A stretch of DNA of 63,103 bases, the filler included, from Reclinomonas americana ATCC 50394 (taxonomy: Eukaryota), in the NCBI GenBank assembly GCA_048213135.1. It is 6 parts of 4 records of this genome, joined end to end, with 100 filler letters (N's around TTAATTAATTAA, not from the genome) between each part and the next. Parts side by side here need not be neighbours in the genome. Positions count along the whole stretch, not along the records: positions 1 to 30,647 come from PS015184.1; 5 more parts are not named here. One strand, given 5' to 3'. Made by a program: the position numbers and the translations under genes. How positions within the stretch are numbered: the first letter of the stretch is position 1; every line of letters begins with the position of its first letter. The notes under the pieces are model-generated. The model searched no databases. It had not been told where the DNA came from and saw only the letters and a program-made list of their open reading frames with translations. Shown one piece after another: positions 3,959 to 28,655 of this stretch.

Positions 3959-17919
<13,961 letters not shown>

Positions 17920-18309: not shown

Positions 18310-20850
18310 TCACCCCCACCCCACCCCACTCCTATACACCACCACCTCCGCCTCCTCCCCCACAAAACACCGCATCACAATCTCCACCAAGCAACGCACA
18401 TCCTCCCCCTCCCCCTCCCCCTCCCCCACCACCATCATCCCCCTNNNNNNNNNNNNNNNNNNNNNNNNNNNNNNNNNNNNNNNNNNNNNNNNNNNNNNNN
18501 NNNNNNNNNNNNNNNNNNNNNNNNNNNNNNNNNNNNNNNNNNNNNNNNNNNNNNNNNNNNNNNNNNNNNNNNNNNNNNNNNNNNNNNNNNNNNNNNNNNN
18601 NNNNNNNNNNNNNNNNNNNNNNNNNNNNNNNNNNNNNNNNNNNNNNNNNNNNNNNNNNNNNNNNNNNNNNNNNNNNNNNNNNNNNNNNNNNNNNNNNNNN
18701 NNNNNNNNNNNNNNNNGCACCTCGTCCCCACTGGCCAGCGACCATAAGCGCACTGTCTTGTCCGCACCGCCGCTCACCACCAGCTGCGCATCGGGGGTGA
18801 CGGCCACCGAGTGCACTCCGCTCGTGTGCCCCTTCAAACGCCGCACTTCGTCACCGCTGGCCAGCGACCACACACGCACCGTCATATCCATGCCTCCACT
18901 CACCACGTGCCGACCGTCGGGGGTGACGGCGACGGAGCGCACCGCATCGACGTGTCCCTCCAGCCGTCGCACTCCCTTGCCACTCGCCACGGACCACACT
19001 CGAATCGTCTCGGCGTCGCTCCCACTCACAGCGTGCTGGCTGTCGGGGGTGACGGCGACGCACCACACTGCCGATGTGTGTCCCTTTAGTGCCTGCAAGG
19101 GGGGAGGGGGAAAGGAGGGAGGGTAAGGGGAGAAGGGGGAAAGGAGGGAGGGTAAGGGGAATGGGGGAGGAGTGGGGGAGGAGTGGGGGGAGGAGAGGGT
19201 GGGGGAGAGGGGGGGAGAGGGGGGAAGGGAGGAGGAGAGGGTGGAGGAGAGGGTGGAGGAGAGGGTGGAGGAGAGGGTGGGGGAGAGGGTGGAGAGGGAG
19301 GAGGAGAGAGGAGAGGAGAGGGTGGAGGACAGAGGAGAGGAAAAGGTGGAGGAGAGGGTGGAGGAGAGGATGGAGGAGAGGGTGGGGGAGAGGGTGGAGG
19401 AGAGGGTGGAGGAGAAGGGGGAGAAGGGGGAGAAGGGAGAGAAGAAGGAGAGGAGAGGGTGGAGGAGAGGGTGGAGGAGAGGGTGGGGGAGAGGGAGGAG
19501 GAGAGGGAGGAGGAGTGGGCGGAGGAGAGGGTGGGGGAGAGGGTGGAGGAGAGGGTGGAGGAGAGGGTAGAGGAGGAGAGGGTGGAGGAGAGGGTAGAGG
19601 AGAGGGTGGAGGAGAGGGTGGAAGAGAGGGTGGATGGAGGAGAGGGTGGGGAGAGGGAGGAGAGGAGAGACGGGAGGGAGGAGGGAGGGANNNNNNNNNN
19701 NNNNNNNNNNNNNNNNNNNNNNNNNNNNNNNNNNNNNNNNNNNNNNNNNNNNNNNNNNNNNNNNNNNNNNNNNNNNNNNNNNNNNNNNNNNNNNNNNNNN
19801 NNNNNNNNNNNNNNNNNNNNNNNNNNNNNNNNNNNNNNNNNNNNNNNNNNNNNNNNNNNNNNNNNNNNNNNNNNNNNNNNNNNNNNNNNNNNNNNNNNNN
19901 NNNNNNNNNNNNNNNNNNNNNNNNNNNNNNNNNNNNNNNNNNNNNNNNNNNNNNNNNNNNNNNNNNNNNNNNNNNNNNNNNNNNNNNNNNNNNNNNNNNN
20001 NNNNNNNNNNNNNNNNNNNNNNNNNNNNNNNNNNNNNNNNNNNNNNNNNNNNNNNNNNNNNNNNNNNNNNNNNNNNNNNNNNNNNNNNNNNNNNNNNNNN
20101 NNNNNNNNNNNNNNNNNNNNNNNNNNNNNNNNNNNNNNNNNNNNNNNNNNNNNNNNNNNNNNNNNNNNNNNNNNNNNNNNNNNNNNNNNNNNNNNNNNNN
20201 NNNNNNNNNNNNNNNNNNNNNNNNNNNNNNNNNNNNNNNNNNNNNNNNNNNNNNNNNNNNNNNNNNNNNNNNNNNNNNNNNNNNNNNNNNNNNNNNNNNN
20301 NNNNNNNNNNNNNNNNNNNNNNNNNNNNNNNNNNNNNNNNNNNNNNNNNNNNNNNNNNNNNNNNNNNNNNNNNNNNNNNNNNNNNNNNNNNNNNNNNNNN
20401 NNNNNNNNNNNNNNNNNNNNNNNNNNNNNNNNNNNNNNNNNNNNNNNNNNNNNNNNNNNNNNNNNNNNNNNNNNNNNNNNNNNNNNNNNNNNNNNNNNNN
20501 NNNNNNGGGAGAGGGAGGCATGCGCAGCGGAATGGAAGGGAGGGAGAAAGGCAGACGGAGGGAGGGAGAGAGGGAGAGAGTGAGAGTGTGTGACAGCGCG
20601 TGGTTCATGTTCGAGCCCCTCTCGCCACGCGACATTCTTCACTCACTGCGTTTCACAGCACCCAGAACGCTCTCTCATGTTGAGGCAAGAGCAACAGGCA
20701 CCAGCTGCACACTCGCTCTCCCTGTCTCCCACCTTCCCTCACACACATTCGATCTCCCTCTCCCTCTCCCTCTCTCTCTCTTTCCCTTTCGCCCTTCCAC
20801 TCATCTTCTCTCTCTCTCTCTCTCTCGCACGTGCACACCTTGGTCGTCAT
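18310..20850 (-). CDS. WD40-repeat protein, paralogue 1 (interrupted by gaps)
   Basis: First exon ATG ACG ACC AAG|GT (20850-20839, MTTK) splices to CAG|ALKGHTSAVWCVAVTPD at 19092. Three repeats are visible before the gap. The tail ...DVRCLVEIVMRCFVGEEAEVV... stops at 18310. Confidence 0.8.
19097..19690. repeat. Intronic (GGAGGAGAGGGT)n 12-bp minisatellite
   Basis: Visible tandem units in the intron of WD40 paralogue 1, running into an N gap. Confidence 0.85.
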
Positions 20851-20970
20851 TCCCTTCCTTGTGCGCTATGCTTTGTCAACGAACTTGTTTCATCCGACAA
20901 AAAACTTCAAAATCAGCCTCACACTCTTTCCCTTGCACACTTGCATACTTTTGAATCACAAAGGAATGCT

Positions 20971-22310
20971 TCACTCCGACCAGCACCATCCAGGCGCACG
21001 GCGTTCAACCACCTCGGCCTCCTCCAGCACGAAGCACCGCAGCACAACATCGACGAGGATCCAGTCACAGTCATCGTCCTCCCCAACAAACAGTTCGTTG
21101 ACGGCCAACACGGCCAATCGCGCAGCCGAGAGCTCCCATCCGGCTAGCCCGCGTGGCGTGTGCCACACTCGCACCGTCTCGTCCACGCCACCCGCGCTCG
21201 CAATGTGCTGACCGTCAGGGGCGACGGCAACAGACAGCACCACATCGCTGTGCCCCTCCAACCGCCGCACTTCCTCTCCGCTCACCACACACCACACGTG
21301 CACTGTCTTGCAATCGCCCCCACACACAATGTGCTGGCCGTCGGGGGCAAAGGCCACAGACCGCACCCACGCACTGCACCCGCCCCACCGTCTCACCTCC
21401 TCGCCACTCGCCACGGACCACACTCGCACGGTCTTGTCGCGACTCCCGCTCACCACGTGCTGCCCATCGGGAGCGATGGCGACGGAACGCACCCAGTTAG
21501 AATGCCCCGCCATACGGCACACCTCCTCCCCATGATTCGCCAGCGACCACACTCGCACGGTGCAGTCGTCACTCCCGCTGATAACATGGTGGCCGTCGGG
21601 TGTGACGGCGACAGACCACACCCACCCCGTGTGTCCTTCCAGTCGTCGCACCTCCTCTCTGCACGCCAGCGACCACACTCGAATGGTCTCGTCCTCACTT
21701 CCACTCACCACATGCAGTCCATCGGGGGTGACGGCGACGGAGAACACTGCATCGAGGTGTCCCTCGAAGCGAAGCAGCTCCTCGCCACTTGCCAGCGACC
21801 ACACTCGCACCGTGTTGTCCACGCTCCCGCTCACCACACGCAGACTGTCGGGAGTGACGGCAACCGACAGCACCGCACCGGTGTGACCCTCCATCCGTTG
21901 CACTTCGCGGCCACTTTGGAGAGACCACAGGCGAACAGTCTTGTCAAAGCTCCCACTGACGACGTGCTGGCCATCGGGGGTGAAGGCGACAAATCGCACC
22001 ACGCCAGTGTGGCCCTCCAGGATCTGCGCAAGCGGCGAGCCACACGATCACTATGCAGTACCACACCCAGGCGCACATGCACGTACGCACACGCAAGAGC
22101 ACACACACACACTGCACACATATACACACACACTGCACACACACACGCACGCGCACACACACACGTACACACACACACACAAACACAAACACAAAAGCAC
22201 GCTCACACACACACGCTCACACACACACACACACACAAACACAAACACAAAAGCACGCTCACACACACACGCTCTCTCTCTCTCTCTCACNNNNNNNNNN
22301 NNNNNNNNNN

Positions 22311-22370
<60 letters not shown>

Positions 22371-22468
22371 TTCAGATGCACACATCCCCATCTCCACATG
22401 CAATCACGTTTCAACATGTACACACACATGCACCCTGAACACGCACCAGCACAGACCTTTGTGGCCAT
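20971..22468 (-). CDS. WD40-repeat protein, paralogue 2 (7 repeats + conserved tail)
   Basis: Exon 1 ATG GCC ACA AAG|GT (22468-22457, MATK). Exon 2 22023-20971 begins ILEGHTGVVRFVAFTPDG and has seven GH..V..V.VTPDG..VVSGS.D.TVRVW repeats, then TPRGLAGWELSAARLAVLAVNELF...WILVDVVLRCFVLEEAEV. Confidence 0.92.
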
Positions 22469-23074
22469 TCCGCTCCGCTGCGCTCCGTTGTTACGAAATG
22501 AAATATTAAATGTCATGCTGCGCTGCGCGCGTCGTGTCTCTTGTGCGCTCGCGGAACCATATGTGCCGCACTACGTCTTTTTCACTGCGGTATGTACGCT
22601 GCTCGACTGCTGGCGGTGGAAGCTGTGTTGCTTGTGATCATGAGACGATATCGATGTCGATCAGTATCGACGTCGACGTCGACGGCATGCATGCGAATTA
22701 CCGTCGCTGCTGCTGCAGCGCAGGGCCACAAGTGCAGATCACGATACATGCGGTGCCAGGGAGATAATTGGATCAACTGCAGCGGCTGTGCGCGATCGAT
22801 CAGGAATTCGATATGCTGAAATCGATCGCGAAGTGCAGTCGAAGTGACCCATGTTGACGAGGTTCGCCGACGCGGAGAGAAAGAGAGTGAGATCGCGATC
22901 ATCTGGGAAGAGAAGCCCCGAGCAGCGACTCGAGACGTACAAGCGACGTTGCGGAGGACAAGTGTTCGGAAAAACGAGATTCGCAGAATCGAACACCGAC
23001 GCACACACCACACCTCCGCACACACACGCATCAAAGAAGCACCACCACCCTCCAACCCCGTGTGCTAAACATCA

Positions 23075-26038
23075 ATGTCCACCAAACATGGTGAGTGGTG
23101 CCGTGCTGGCTTCAGCTTCATACTCTCCTTTGTTGTTTGTCTGATAATTTCTCCGCGGCCGGCTCCGCCTCCCTCTTCGCAGTCACCTCTCGTCTCCTTG
23201 TGACGCTGTTGTGCGTCATCATCATGCTCGTCGGCGTCTCGCATGGTGAGTCGCACGACGTGTGTGGATGTACTCGCGTGTTGTGGGCGCTGTTGTTGAG
23301 AGTGTGTGTGTAAATGGCGGACGGAGCCGCGCGCGCGCACCATCACGTCGCGCGCCCGATCTTAAACTGTTTTCTGTGTAACCAGGTGTGCCTCTGCCGG
23401 TCAGGCAAATCTCCACCGGCTTCAAGGGGACGACCATTCCGCCACCAGTGGGTTCTGGCGTCGCGTTCTCGCAAGACGATCACTGGAGTGTCGCAGTGAA
23501 CGGCCAGACCACCAAGGCCTTCGTTAGCAACCCTTCGCTGTGCTACTTTGACGGCTCGAGCACCATTTGCTGGGACGCTCCCTCCACGGCCTCTGCGTGG
23601 GTGACTCCATGTGAGTAGCGATCGGATTCTGTGCTCTCTCTCGATCTCGCACTCTATCTCCCTTCGGCTGTGTGTCTCTCTGTAAGTACCAGTCTTCCCG
23701 TCTGTCTCTCTGTGCTCCTCCTTCTCTTTATCTTTCTCGATCCCTTCTTAACCATTCTCTCTCTTCCCCCATCGATATCCCTTCGCCTCTCTTCGCACAG
23801 CCAGCAGCAGCACTGCTGCGCTCGTGTGGAACGACAAGACGTTGCAGTTCACCACCAGCTTTGACATGACGGGCTACGATCCGAGCAAGGCAATGCTGCA
23901 GATTCGACTGGAGGGAGATTTTGCTCCCGCGGAGCCGACCACCGCCTTTGTGCAAGTGACGCCTGCCGGCACCTCTGATCTAATAACCGTGCCCTATCCC
24001 GCGTGGTCGCCCACCAACTCGTACTCGCTGTCCAACCATCCGTGGGTGACCGTACCGGCGACCGGCTGGCTTCCCAAGGCCGGTAATGTGCTGTCGGTGA
24101 AAATCCAGAATGTCGCCGACGTCACCGGACTCCGAGTGGAGGCGCAATGTGAGTGTGCAGCGTCATGACTGGCTGTGCACTCTTACTCACTTCCCAAACC
24201 GTGCATGCAGTGCTCTGCAAAACAAGCGCCTGCGCGGCGCCCTTGACGTGCTGCGTCGGTCTATGCCAGGACCTCCTCCACGATGTCAACAACTGCGGCA
24301 CGTGCGATAAAGTGTGCCCCGTTGCGTTGACTGTGATTATGAGACAATCTCTCTCCCATGACCATAATCTCATTCATCTACTGTACATTGCCCCTTCCTT
24401 CCCACCCTTTTCTTCTTCATTTCCCCACAGAACCCTCAAGCATGCTGCCGAGGCGCGTGTACTGATCTGACTTCGACTATCAACAACTGCGGCGCGTGTG
24501 GCAAGATTTGCAGTCCGGCAGATGCCTGTTGCGCTGGTGTGTGCACCAGTGTGCTCACCATGCAGACGGATCCCAAGAACTGCGGCATGTGCGGCAACGT
24601 GTGCCCCACTGGCCAGTCGTGCTGCGCCGGCAAGTGCGTCAACCTCGGCAACAATCCATTCAACTGCGGCACGTGCGGCAAGTCGTGTGCCGCCGGCCAG
24701 GACTGCTGCAACGGCGTGTGCTACACCATCAGCAACTACGCCACCGACGCCAAGAACTGCGGCAAATGCGGCAACGTGTGCCCCACTGGCCAATCGTGCT
24801 GCAACGGCGTCTGCACCAACCTCAGCAACACCGCCAGCAACTGTGGCACCTGTGGCAAGTCGTGCGCCGCCGGCCAGGTCTGCTGCAACGGATTGTGCGT
24901 CTTCCCCAGCGCCTTCACGTTTGACAGCAAGAACTGCGGCTCGTGTGGCAATGTGTGCCCCACTGGCCAGTCATGCTGCTACGGCAAGTGCGTCTCCACG
25001 AGCAGCGATTCGAGCAACTGCGGCACCTGCGGCAAGACGTGCGCCACTGGTCAGTCGTGCTGCAACGGCGTCTGCGTCAATACCCAGAGCTTCGCCACGG
25101 ACGCCAAGAATTGTGGCACGTGCGGACATTTGTGTCCGCTGACAGCACCCAATTGCTGCAACGGATCGTGTGTGGCACCGACCAATGATCCGCTGAAATG
25201 TGGTCCGTGCGCCAATGTGCAGTGTCTTCCCGGTCGCGCCTGCTGCAGCGGCGTCTGCACCAATCTCAGCAACGACGCCAGCAACTGTGGTACTTGTGGG
25301 AAGCCGTGCGCTGCCGGCCAGGACTGCTGCAACGGCGTGTGCTACGCCATCAGCAACTACGCCACCGACGTCAAGAACTGCGGCTCGTGCGGCAACGTGT
25401 GCCCCACTGGCCAGCCGTGCTGCGCCGGCAAGTGCGCCAACCTCAGCAACAATCCATTCAACTGTGGCACATGCGGCAAGTCGTGTGCCGCCGGTCAGGA
25501 CTGCTGCAACAGCGTGTGCTACGCCATCAGCAACTACGCCACCGACGCCAAGAACTGCGGCAAATGCGGCAACGTGTGCCCCACTGGCCAGTCGTGCTGC
25601 AACGGCGTCTGCACCAANNNNNNNNNNNNNNNNNNNNAAGTCTGCTGCAACGGATTGTGCGTCCTGCCCAGCAGTTTCACCAACGACAAGAACAACTGTG
25701 GCTCTTGCGGCTTTGTTTGCCCCGCCGCTGGCCAGTCATGCTGCAACAGCAAGTGCGTCGTGTTGAGCAGCGATTCGAGCAACTGCGGCACCTGTGGCAA
25801 GACGTGCGCCACTGGTCAGTCGTGCTGCAACAGCGTCTGCGTCAATACCCAGAGCTTCGCCACGGACGCCAAGAATTGTGGCACGTGCGGACATGTGTGC
25901 CCGCTGACGGCACCCAATTGCTGCAACGGATCGTGCGTGGCACCGACCAATGATCCGCTGAAATGCGGTCCGTGCGCCAACGTGCAGTGTCTTCCCAATC
26001 TCAAGTGCTGCACGGGAGTGTGCAAGACCGCCTGCTGA
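23075..26038 (+). CDS. Secreted protein: N-terminal beta-sandwich (lectin/galactose-binding-like) domain + STIG1-like Cys-rich repeats
   Basis: Exons 23075-23090 and 23183-23245 give the signal peptide MSTKHVTSRLLVTLLCVIIMLVGVSHG. Next exons encode DDHW..SAWV..FTTSFDMTGYDPSKA..GNVLSVKIQN..TGLRVE. Many DxxNCGxCGxxCxxGQxCCNGxC repeats follow, to the stop at 26038. Confidence 0.88.
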
Positions 26039-26193
26039 TCTGGACCATCCAAGTGAAAAAGGGCGCAAGCTGAGGATTGTTAATGTAAAGAAGCTCTGGC
26101 CTTGGAACAGTATTGTCAATGCGAAACAGCCAGCTGGAGGGGAAGGCGATAAAGTACCAGTCATCCATCTCGTGCTGGCCATGGTTCATTGCG

Positions 26194-27331
26194 CTACCAA
26201 AGCGCGCAACGCTCAATCACCTCTGCATCCTCCAGCACGAAACAACGCAGCACGACATCCACGAGAATCCAGTCACAGCCATCGCCATCATCTTCGGCAA
26301 GGAGCTCATCAACAGCCAGCACGGCTAATCGCGCGGCCGCAAGTTCCTGCCTGGCGAGCCCACGCGGAGTTGACCACACTCGGATCGTCCTGTCGCGACT
26401 CCCACTGACGATGAGGCCACCGTCGGGGGCGACGGCAATCGACGTCGCCCAATGGGCGTGTCCCTGTAACCGCTGCACTTCACCTCCACTCTCGAGTGAC
26501 CACACACGAACGGTCTTGTCAGCACTTCCGCTCACAACGTGCAGGCCACTGGGAGTGACGGTGACACATAAAACTTCGCCAGCGTGTCCCTCCAGCCGTC
26601 GCACCTCCTCACCACTCACCGCAGACCACACTCGCACCGTCATATCCGCCGACCCACTCACGATGTGACCACCATCGGGAGTGGTGGCGACAGACATCAC
26701 TCGATCTGTGTGTCCGTGTAATCGGCGCACCTCCTCTCCACTCTCCAGCGACCACACTCGCACTGTGTTGTCCACGCCCCCACTCACCACGTGTCGGTTG
26801 TCGGGAGTGACGGCGACCGCCAACACCACACTGCCGTGTCCCTCCAGTTGTCGTACTTCTGCTCCAGTCGCCAGTGACCACACCCGCACTGTGTTGTCCC
26901 AGCTCCCGCTGACAACGTGACGACTGTCCGGAGTGGCAGCCACAGAAAACACCACGCCAGAGTGACCCTCCAGCCGTCGAACCTCCTTCCCACTTGCCAG
27001 AGACCACACTTTCACGGTGTTGTCACCATTCCCACTCACCACGTGCTGACCGTCGGGAGTGACCGCCACAGACTGCACACCTCCAGTGTGTCCCTCCAAC
27101 CGCCGCACTTCCGCCCCACTAACCAGTGACCGCACTCGCACTGCCTCGGCGCCACAGCCGCTCACAATGTGCAGACCATCGGGGGTGATGGCGAGCGAGT
27201 ACACCGCGTAGGTGTAGCCGTCCAGGATCTGTGTGAAGCGCAGAAGGTGAGGCGACAAGGGCAGGTACACTCACGGATGCACAAGCACACGATGACCACG
27301 CAAGTGCGCATATTCACACCTTGGTTGCCAT
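26194..27331 (-). CDS. WD40-repeat protein, paralogue 3 (7 repeats + conserved tail)
   Basis: Exon 1 ATG GCA ACC AAG|GT (27331-27320, MATK). Exon 2 27228-26194 begins ILDGYTYAVYSLAITPDG and has seven repeats, then TPRGLARQELAAARLAVLAVDELL...WILVDVVLRCFVLEDAEV. Confidence 0.92.
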
Positions 27332-28643
27332 TCTCCGTGTGTGTGTGTGAGAGAGAGAGAAAGAGGGTATGTGTGTGCGTGCGTGCGCGCGTGTGTGCGT
27401 GTGCGTTACGAGAAGCAGCAGCGAGAGGCTGATTCATGAATTCATCCGACGGAATATCAACATCCTCTTTCTCTCTCGCGCGTGGTGTGCGCCTCGCGGT
27501 GCTGTCTGTGTCTCAGTGCCCCCTCTTTCTCCGCGTCCTCGTCGTGGTGCTCCCTTCTCAAACTGCAAAATGAGTGAGATGTTGCGGCATTGAAGGTGCA
27601 TGCATGCATGCATGCCAAGACTGTTCAACTCGACACGCCATGAGCGTCAACTCGCTCCGAGCCACGCACGCGAGTCGAGGCGGAGAGTCCAGCAACACAC
27701 GATTCACAAGGGAGCAACGAGGTATCCACCAGTTATCAGGGCACACACGCACGCGCGGGAAACGAGTGCGCAGGGCAAGTGCACTCCCTCCCCGTGGCGT
27801 GTGTAACGAGAACGGTGGCCCTCTGAATCGATGCTTGACGTGCTCAGCATGGACATGCAGTGCCAGTGTGAGGAGGGGAGGCGACCATGATGCCACTGGC
27901 CGCTGCTTCAAAGCCACAGGCTGGCGTCTCCGCCGCGTTCGAATGACAAGGCGACATGAGCTCGAGGGCACAAGGCTTGTGTATGTGGGTGGATGAGCGA
28001 GGACTCGCTCAATTCCGAGCAGCGCGTGTCTGTTCATTCCATGGTCTCACCTCAACCACACACCCACACCTCCTTCTTGGCATGCTCCACTGCACTGTGC
28101 TGCATCTTCTTTCTCGCGGCCTCGACTTGGCAATGCAACAAGGAAGCACCTGTGTGCACCAGGCGGTGTGGTGGCCAACATGACAGAGTTGCGCAGTGAC
28201 AGCAATCGGTCTTCGTACATTCATTGAGCTCACTCCGTTCNNNNNNNNNNNNNNNNNNNNNNNNNNNNNNNNNNNNNNNNNNNNNNNNNNNNNNNNNNNN
28301 NNNNNNNNNNNNNNNNNNNNNNNNNNNNNNNNNNNNNNNNNNNNNNNNNNNNNNNNNNNNNNNNNNNNNNNNNNNNNNNNNNNNNNNNNNNNNNNNNNNN
28401 NNNNNNNNNNNNNNNNNNNNNNNNNNNNNNNNNNNNNNNNNNNNNNNNNNNNNNNNNNNNNNNNNNNNNNNNNNNNNNNNNNNNNNNNNNNNNNNNNNNN
28501 NNNNNNNNNNNNNNNNNNNNNNNNNNNNNNNNNNNNNNNNNNNNNNNNNNNNNNNNNNNNNNNNNNNNNNNNTGGTGGGAAGGGCACACACACACAGAGA
28601 GAGAGAGAGAGAAGCAGACACACACACGCGCGTGTGAGCGCAC

Positions 28644-28655
28644 CTTGGTTGCCAT
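28644..28655 (-). other. Fourth MATK micro-exon (ATGGCAACCAAG|GTGCGC) with no visible WD40 body
   Basis: Coding 12-mer identical to exon 1 of paralogue 3, followed by a GT donor and intron-like simple sequence that runs into the N gap at 28241-28572. Confidence 0.6.

What the first reader, a model, noticed from the sequence alone, without database searches (positions are those of the whole stretch)
18310..28655. Tandem family of stand-alone WD40 propellers with near-identical repeats, variable top-face residues and a conserved unknown C-terminal tail
Seen: three co-oriented paralogues share the architecture M(A/T)TK micro-exon + one exon of highly similar WD40 repeats (7 in the two complete copies) + a ~55-aa tail (TPRGLAxxELxAARLAVLAVxEL..acidic..LVDVVLRCFVLE[DE]AEV; LVEIVMRCFVGEEAEV in copy 1). 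Variation concentrates just after GH (TGVVRF, TGAVLS, LDAVFS, TGWVWS, SNWVRS, TGGVQS, TDRVMS, AHWATS) and in SGSxD (F, V, E, D, R, W, A). Established: these are the ligand-facing positions diversified in fungal HET-E/NWD NLR WD40 repeats. Inference: a diversifying recognition module with no NACHT domain. The helical tail may be an adaptor, for example a SOCS-box or PRANC/F-box-like cullin recruiter, making these variable substrate receptors for intracellular defence.
Basis: partly seen in the sequence, partly recalled or inferred. Interest (0 to 1): 0.72.

Follow-up and report, generated by a model that had tools for sequence, protein, structure and literature searches.

The report
WD40 propeller genes with orphan hairpin
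Three neighbouring protist genes encode small WD40 propeller proteins that vary mostly on their predicted binding face and end in the same conserved, unclassified two-helix tail, likely a set of adaptors sharing one unknown partner; diversifying selection was not detected, and the tail lacks the SOCS, VHL and F-box motifs of ubiquitin-ligase adaptors.

Summary
The genes are real. Copies 2 and 3 are complete (a four-codon exon, one exon with 7 WD40 repeats, a ~57-aa tail). Copy 1 is split by assembly gaps, and a fourth micro-exon at 28644-28655 points into another gap. Two claims fail. The repeats are not near-identical (mean 60% aa; best 72% over 100 aa, against the 85% fungal-NLR criterion). 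The six HET-E-type top-face sites evolve freely (omega about 0.96, versus 0.16 elsewhere) but not measurably above 1, and the same sites vary in 39 of 39 other repetitive WD40 proteins scored. The tail is the distinctive part. It is under strong purifying selection (omega 0.07), is predicted to form a helical hairpin, and has no significant Pfam or NCBIfam match. Its only outside relatives found are a Reclinomonas americana (jakobid) EST and one unnamed protein whose propeller is ~29% identical but whose tail is 61% identical. BC-box, LPxP and F-box motifs are absent; a DDB1 H-box resemblance is partial (5-6 of 10 features). Best reading: lineage-restricted adaptors with a variable face and a constant plug; partner unknown. 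The scan has already noted similar arrays on many other pieces of this genome (unverified notes).

The parts
20839..20850 (-). Copy 1 micro-exon (MTTK), GT donor; link to exon 2 crosses an 816-N gap
   Evidence: gaps
18717..19092 (-). Copy 1 exon 2, visible 5' part: three WD40 repeats, cut by the gap 18445-18716
18310..18444 (-). Copy 1: acidic linker, second tail helix and stop codon
22457..22468 (-). Copy 2 micro-exon (MATK), followed by a 433-nt intron
21160..22023 (-). Copy 2: seven WD40 repeats (repeat 6 degenerate at GH and SGSxD)
20971..21159 (-). Copy 2: conserved C-terminal tail and stop codon
27320..27331 (-). Copy 3 micro-exon (MATK), followed by a 91-nt intron
26371..27228 (-). Copy 3: seven WD40 repeats, predicted 7-bladed propeller (pLDDT about 90-98; repeat 1 degenerate)
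26194..26370 (-). Copy 3: conserved tail, predicted helical hairpin (helices 3-27 and 33-56 of the 57-aa model)
28644..28655 (-). Fourth MATK micro-exon with GT donor; probable fourth copy whose exon 2 would lie in the gap 28241-28572 (not seen)

Best explanation
These are paralogues of a lineage-restricted protist gene family (likely jakobid) in which a seven-bladed WD40 propeller likely binds a copy-specific target through its variable top face, while a conserved C-terminal tail, predicted to be a helical hairpin, likely docks every member onto one shared and still unknown partner. Shown: gene models, 7 repeats, relaxed evolution of six top-face sites, strong purifying selection on the tail, and the same tail on a far more divergent propeller. 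Inferred: that the top face binds targets (established for WD40 propellers generally) and that the tail is a docking plug. Guess for the partner (about 0.3): cullin-RING ubiquitin-ligase machinery reached through a non-canonical box, the closest motif being the DDB1-binding H-box. The four-codon first exon probably supplies part of the strand that closes the ring (inference from the repeat register).
For: 7 WD40 matches per complete copy. AlphaFold2 gives a confident propeller whose best structural matches are regular 7-bladed propellers such as PkwA, 5yzv. The six sites with HET-E spacing have omega 0.96 against 0.16 for the other 26 columns (p 5e-20 for a difference) and sit in the d-a loop, the start of strand a and the b-c turn. 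Tail of copy 2 vs copy 3: omega 0.07 over 48 codons at dS 1.3, lower than the propeller scaffold (0.22). P0126 is 29-30% identical overall but 61% identical to copy 3 in the tail, so the tail outlasts the propeller sequence. An EST of Reclinomonas americana encodes the same last repeat plus tail, so a family member is transcribed in a jakobid. With a 5-row alignment the tail folds as a hairpin (pLDDT 88, pTM 0.69) with conserved hydrophobic and alanine positions on both helices. Helix 2 meets 5-6 of 10 H-box features listed in PMC11112733. Unverified scan notes report a similar tail on MATH-domain and E2-like proteins in this genome.
Against: Omega at the variable sites does not exceed 1 (95% profile interval roughly 0.65-1.4 on the ML tree), so relaxed constraint explains them equally well. 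The same sites vary more than the rest in 39 of 39 other repetitive WD40 proteins scored. No BC-box, LPxP or F-box pattern in 5 of 5 tails and no F-box, SOCS or PRANC Pfam hit at E<=10. The H-box match lacks the basic residues at positions 7-8, four of five tails are net acidic, and the propellers have no WDxR motif. The hairpin model is uneven across the five models (pLDDT 60-88) and the tail was unresolved in the single-sequence model (pLDDT about 40). The sequence look-ups in the scan's notes found no look-alikes, so I could not confirm that the tails in those notes are this tail.
Confidence: 0.55

Rival explanations
1. Diversifying immune-type recognition repertoire: free sensors or decoys related to the sensor domain of NLR-like proteins, under pathogen-driven selection.
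For: Variable sites match the HET-E selected sites in spacing and position. Repeats show no positional orthology between copies: same-position and different-position pairs are both 0.68 nt identical, as expected after past shuffling. Unverified scan notes describe arrays of 5-20 genes elsewhere in this genome, some beside NLR-like genes, and one note reports selection.
Against: No omega>1 class (M1a vs M2a p 0.75; M8a vs M8 2dL 0; M7 vs M8 p 0.04 but with the extra class at omega 1.0). Repeat identity is far below the 80-100% of HNWD genes. None of the long ORFs of this window that I scanned against Pfam matched NACHT or NB-ARC (most ORFs were not scanned).
Confidence: 0.25
2. Ordinary birth-and-death expansion of a moderately repetitive WD40 gene: surface loops drift neutrally, and the tail is a structural cap or self-association hairpin rather than a plug for a common partner.
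For: Omega about 1 at variable sites. 24 of 39 other repetitive WD40 hits are as internally similar or more so. Moderately and highly repetitive WD40 proteins are common in prokaryotes, fungi and protists (PMC5587647). One repeat is degenerate in each complete copy.
Against: The tail is more conserved than the propeller scaffold and persists on a propeller only ~29% identical, which is unexpected for a passive cap.
Confidence: 0.15
3. Canonical SOCS-box, VHL-box or F-box/PRANC substrate receptors (WSB-like or poxvirus-like).
For: The architecture (WD40 followed directly by a short helical C-terminal module) parallels WSB proteins (PMC3355856). One of five tails (P0125) has a hydrophobic-Pro start to helix 2, as in the Cul2 box and F-box.
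Against: BC-box consensus (S,T,P)LxxxC/S/Axxx-hydrophobic from PMC4878042: my strict (Cys) and loose (Cys or Ala) patterns matched 0 of 5 tails, and LPxP and an F-box pattern also 0 of 5. No such Pfam family at E<=10. The predicted fold is two long helices, not the three short helices of these boxes (box architecture recalled).
Confidence: 0.05

Closest known systems
WD40 sensor domains of Podospora anserina HNWD/NWD NLRs (HET-E, HET-D; PMC1805685, PMC12222747, PMC4986451; passages read)
   Same: Regular 42-residue WD40 repeats; variation concentrated at sites with the same spacing (10, 11, 12, 14, 30, 32) in the d-a loop and b-c turn; repeats no more alike within than between genes.
   Different: No NACHT or HET domain; repeat identity about 60% rather than 80-100%; no positive selection detected; a C-terminal hairpin that NLRs are not described as having.
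Moderately/highly repetitive WD40 proteins such as Thermomonospora PkwA (PDB 5yzv; PMC5587647, passages read)
   Same: Best structural match (rmsd about 1.0-1.1 A over 286 residues); internal identity falls in the 'moderately repetitive' band (0.4-0.7, my measure); same variable sites.
   Different: Stand-alone, spliced, tandemly duplicated eukaryotic genes with a private tail.
WSB1-type WD40-SOCS-box and other Elongin BC receptors (PMC3355856, PMC4878042; passages read)
   Same: Propeller followed directly by a short helical C-terminal module.
   Different: No BC box, no LP-hydrophobic-P Cul5 box; predicted fold is a long two-helix hairpin.
DCAF WD40 receptors of CRL4 with an H-box/helix-loop-helix (PMC11112733, PMC3928422, PMC8056151; passages read)
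   Same: WD40 propeller plus a two-helix module; hydrophobic positions 2, 3, 6, 11 and Arg at 9 of the 13-residue helix are met.
   Different: Module is C-terminal (N-terminal in the DCAF1 construct described); not basic at positions 7-8; mostly acidic context; no WDxR motif.

Membership tests
WD40 seven-bladed propeller | Seven GH...W repeats folding into a closed propeller | tested here: met
   7 PF00400 matches in each complete copy; AlphaFold2 model and Foldseek matches
Fungal HNWD/NWD NLR | NACHT domain N-terminal to the WD repeats | tested here: not met
   Copies 2 and 3 begin with a four-codon exon spliced to the first repeat; only WD40-type families among the Pfam hits shown
Fungal HNWD/NWD NLR | High internal conservation (>=85% over >=100 aa, PMC4986451) | tested here: not met
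   72% and 70%; mean repeat identity 60%
Fungal HNWD/NWD NLR | Variation concentrated at top-face sites in the d-a loop and b-c turn | tested here: met
   matched by spacing and secondary structure, not by alignment to HET-E itself
Fungal HNWD/NWD NLR | Positive selection (omega>1) at those sites | tested here: inconclusive
   omega 0.96-1.22 depending on tree and site set, never significantly above 1; only 17 repeats, dS about 1
Fungal HNWD/NWD NLR | Repeat-number polymorphism among isolates | not testable with these tools
   No population data available
SOCS/VHL-box receptor | BC box (S,T,P)Lxxx(C,S,A)xxx-hydrophobic | tested here: not met
   0 of 5 tails with Cys or Ala at the fifth position (the Ser variant was not in the pattern and is absent by eye; copy 1 lacks helix 1); consensus
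SOCS/VHL-box receptor | Cul5 box LP-hydrophobic-P or Cul2 box hydrophobic-PxxPhixxxPhi | tested here: not met
   LPxP in 0 of 5; the Pro is present in 1 of 5 tails only
SOCS/VHL-box receptor | Binds Elongin B/C | not tested
   No Elongin sequence was fetched
F-box / PRANC receptor | F-box motif or Pfam F-box/PRANC match | tested here: not met
   Recalled F-box pattern 0 of 5; no such family at E<=10
F-box / PRANC receptor | F-box/PRANC-like fold | tested here: inconclusive
   A 57-residue hairpin model cannot exclude a family by fold search
F-box / PRANC receptor | Binds Skp1 | not tested
   No Skp1 sequence was fetched
DCAF (CRL4 receptor) | 13-residue H-box helix (hydrophobic 2, 3, 5, 6, 11; basic 7-9; polar 1, 10) | tested here: inconclusive
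   5-6 of 10 features in 5 tails; the published motif is itself weak
DCAF (CRL4 receptor) | WDxR motif in the propeller | tested here: not met
   None in copies 2 or 3
DCAF (CRL4 receptor) | Binds the BPA-BPC cleft of DDB1 | not testable with these tools
   Needs a pull-down or a solved structure with the host's own DDB1

The most novel reading that the evidence does not exclude
A jakobid variable-receptor repertoire: dozens to hundreds of NACHT-less WD40 propellers, each with its own binding face, all plugged into ubiquitin-ligase machinery by a new C-terminal hairpin box (possibly a C-terminal DDB1 H-box that is also grafted onto MATH and E2-like proteins), used to recognise and destroy foreign proteins inside the cell.
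Probability: 0.15. Interest if true: 0.8.

Novelty: new variant of a known kind. Interest (0 to 1): 0.4.

Why it matters
The propeller part is ordinary: repetitive WD40 proteins with variable top faces are widespread. The conserved tail is an unclassified module known here only from this window, one jakobid EST and one unnamed protein. If it is a docking box, it would be a new way of wiring many target-binding domains to one cellular machine in a deep-branching, little-studied eukaryote, and one pull-down would identify that machine. If a ubiquitin ligase is the partner and selection is confirmed on the full family, it would be a protist counterpart of the expanded F-box and NLR repertoires. 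This window adds three more copies, a 5' micro-exon and a negative selection test to a family the scan has already flagged.

Tried and rejected
Own-genome search: no genome is held for this window, so family size could not be counted. Sequencing runs: none was listed and no RNA holder was listed, so the gaps could not be filled. Tail by word-based protein search: nothing at E<=1 among 567 candidates; with the 5-row profile among longer proteins only P0125 and P0126 returned. The third hit of the full HMMER search, P0127 (a Cys-rich repeat protein of Nitzschia, E 4e-6 summed over five stretches), was rejected as compositional. Metagenome and viral contig scans for the tail: 0 of 77 and 0 of 102 pattern matches confirmed. 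ESM Atlas: no usable hit twice, which shows neither absence nor novelty. Pfam, NCBIfam and PHROGs on the five tails: no hit better than E 0.019. PDB sequences: only weak light-harvesting-complex helices (best E 0.054), rejected as chance likeness of one helix; helix 2 alone gave nothing. Fold searches of the hairpin model returned only generic helical hairpins (Foldseek PDB and viral, no E<=0.001; VIA best Z 8.9, rmsd 1.8 A over 56 residues, tied with unrelated coiled coils); no SOCS, F-box, PRANC or DCAF chain was among the rows shown, which does not exclude them. Complex prediction of the tail with a stand-in metagenomic DDB1 (BPA/BPC parts): no answer, score 0.02 against a mark of 0.34, alignments not used, tail fold uncertain, controls not run; no support and no evidence against. 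Remains of copy 4 below the gap: no nhmmer hit, and a gappy local alignment was inconsistent between copies (0 of 200 and 19 of 200 shuffles reached the score), so inconclusive. The jakobid Gcp1-3 WD40 proteins (Pex7-like; PMC8134430, passages) are a different description and were not pursued. Literature searches for this family: 'jakobid + WD40 + gene family expansion', 'protist + immune + WD40 + tandem + substrate receptor + expanded' and 'Reclinomonas + WD40' listed no title or abstract describing it; of those papers only PMC8134430 was opened, and only open-access full text was searched.
Full report
Observation. The window is spliced eukaryotic DNA with many microsatellites and assembly gaps; it also encodes a dynein heavy chain. 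On the minus strand, four 12-nt micro-exons read M(A/T)TK and end in a GT donor: 20839-20850, 22457-22468, 27320-27331 and 28644-28655. Three of them face a pyrimidine-rich AG acceptor that opens a WD40 exon in phase 0, across introns of 1746, 433 and 91 nt. Copies 2 and 3 are complete, with 7 Pfam WD40 matches each. Copy 1 shows three repeats, a 272-N gap, and then the second half of the tail; its intron also holds an 816-N gap. The fourth micro-exon points into a 332-N gap, so a fourth copy is probable but unseen. A STIG1-like cysteine-rich gene on the plus strand lies between copies 2 and 3.

Repeat similarity. I compared 17 repeats over 32 codons (one inserted codon in copy 2 repeat 7 left out; linkers not counted). 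Identity averages 0.60 aa and 0.67-0.68 nt. It is the same within genes (45 pairs), between genes (91 pairs), and for same-position (13) versus different-position (78) pairs; dS is about 0.95. The best internal identity over 100 aa is 72% and 70%. Fungal HNWD repeats are 80-100% identical (PMC12222747, passages), and the high-conservation criterion is 85% over 100 aa (PMC4986451, passages). 'Near-identical' is therefore wrong. The proteins fall in the 'moderately repetitive' band of PMC5587647 (passages; my measure may differ from theirs). The bootstrap support of the repeat tree is mostly low, which fits old duplication or past shuffling but shows no recent homogenisation.

Variable sites. 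The most variable columns are the three after GH, the residue two further on, and the two flanking the Asp of SGSxD; two other columns (GH-1 and the residue after TPDG) are nearly as variable. Their spacing equals that of positions 10, 11, 12, 14, 30 and 32 used for HET-E and of the four codons 7, 9, 25, 27 placed in the d-a loop and b-c turn (PMC1805685, passages; figures not seen, so the match is by spacing and secondary structure). In the AlphaFold2 model of copy 3 (propeller pLDDT about 90-98) they lie in those elements. With my own codon-model code, these six sites have omega 0.96 against 0.16 for the rest on the ML tree (1.13 and 0.14 on a star tree). The difference is highly significant, but omega=1 is not rejected (p 0.83 and 0.55). 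M1a vs M2a (p 0.75) and M8a vs M8 (2dL 0) find no positively selected class; M7 vs M8 gives p 0.04 only because the extra class sits at omega 1.0. Power is limited by 17 repeats, high dS and possible recombination. As a control, 39 of the 120 listed hits had five or more regular repeats (81 dropped); all 39 are more variable at the same six sites (entropy ratio >1.5, median 3.8; copies 3 and 2 give 3.7 and 4.4), and 24 of 39 have internal identity of 0.60 or more. These hits were chosen for likeness to copy 2, so the control is biased, but it shows the pattern is not peculiar to this family.

The tail. Between copies 2 and 3 the two tail helices have omega 0.07 over 48 codons, against 0.22 for the propeller scaffold; against copy 1, helix 2 gives 0.34-0.40 over 18 codons. 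An HMMER search of 1.84 billion representatives with a 3-row profile gave 3 hits at E<=0.001, two of them real by inspection. P0125 is an EST protein of the jakobid Reclinomonas americana with the last repeats plus the tail. P0126 is an unnamed Logan protein with a divergent propeller, 29-30% identical overall but 61% identical to copy 3 in the tail. That the window itself is from a jakobid is an inference from P0125. With five rows AlphaFold2 predicts a hairpin of two ~25-residue helices joined by an acidic loop of variable length (pLDDT 88, pTM 0.69; other models 60-78). Without an alignment the tail was unresolved. Invariant residues include TP, L-A, E-L and alanines in helix 1 and L, V, R-C-F, E, A, V in helix 2.

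Is it a cullin box? The BC-box and Cul2-box consensuses (PMC4878042 and PMC3355856, passages) are not met: 0 of 5 tails match my BC-box patterns, LPxP or a recalled F-box pattern, and Pfam gives no F-box, SOCS or PRANC hit at E<=10. I noticed from memory that helix 2 resembles the DDB1-binding H-box of DCAF proteins. Against the features listed in PMC11112733 (passages) it meets 5-6 of 10: hydrophobic positions 2, 3, 6, 11 and Arg 9, the arginine whose counterpart matters in DCAF1 (PMC3928422, passages). It is not basic at 7-8, four of five tails are net acidic, and there is no WDxR motif. H-boxes are dissimilar in sequence (PMC8056151, passages), so this is a lead only.

How it most likely works. 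A fold whose top face normally binds proteins (established knowledge), free variation on that face, and a constant module that is more conserved than the fold itself together suggest interchangeable adaptors with one shared partner (0.55). A selected immune repertoire (0.25), neutral expansion with a structural tail (0.15) and canonical SOCS/F-box receptors (0.05) are the rivals. No step beyond the gene anatomy and evolutionary rates is shown.

Earlier notes. The scan reports arrays of 5-20 similar genes on many other pieces of this genome, some beside NLR-like genes, and a similar tail on MATH-like and E2-like proteins. These are unchecked AI notes. Sequence look-ups found no look-alikes, so their identity with this tail rests on their wording. 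They describe the genes as intronless, whereas these copies carry a 5' micro-exon. Notes disagree on selection; my test on this window sides with 'not shown'.

Novelty. The architecture is a variant of known repetitive WD40 proteins with an unclassified tail. Three open-access searches listed no title or abstract describing it; supplements and subscription papers were not seen and could annotate such genes. Verdict: real, partly as described, new variant of a known kind, interest 0.4.

Noticed in passing
window 28644-28655 (-) and gap 28241-28572: Fourth MATK micro-exon with a GT donor; the stated gap (332 N) is too short for a 1-kb exon, so either the gap is under-sized or the exon is an orphan.
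   Followed up: partly
window 23088-26038 (+): Multi-exon gene with a likely signal peptide and a long STIG1-like cysteine-rich repeat region (PF04885, E 2e-68), inserted in opposite orientation between copies 2 and 3. The start is inferred from the sequence.
   Followed up: partly
window 58327-61113 (+): Two long ORFs; the first carries a Walker-A-like GxGKT motif. No Pfam hit at E<=0.001. By recall they resemble Crinkler-like P-loop/nuclease proteins; untested.
   Followed up: partly
window about 4400-16800 (-): Large intron-rich gene with Gly/Ser/Asn-rich repeats resembling polymorphic-membrane-protein beta-helix repeats, followed by a Cys-rich segment and hydrophobic segments; two exons scanned had no Pfam hit.
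   Followed up: partly
window about 47700-51100 (+): Leucine-rich-repeat gene (LRR_4/LRR_6 hits in one exon).
   Followed up: partly
window 61755-63102 (-): Dynein heavy chain fragment (stalk and AAA_9).
   Followed up: partly
window 19166-19662: Purine-rich 12-nt tandem repeat (about 42 copies) filling the intron of copy 1.
   Followed up: no
tail helix 1, window 26300-26370 (-): Weak likeness to the chlorophyll-binding helices of light-harvesting proteins (best E 0.054); treated as chance.
   Followed up: yes
P0010: Metagenomic protein with very similar repetitive WD40 blades and a helical N-terminal region that looks F-box-like by eye; not tested.
   Followed up: no
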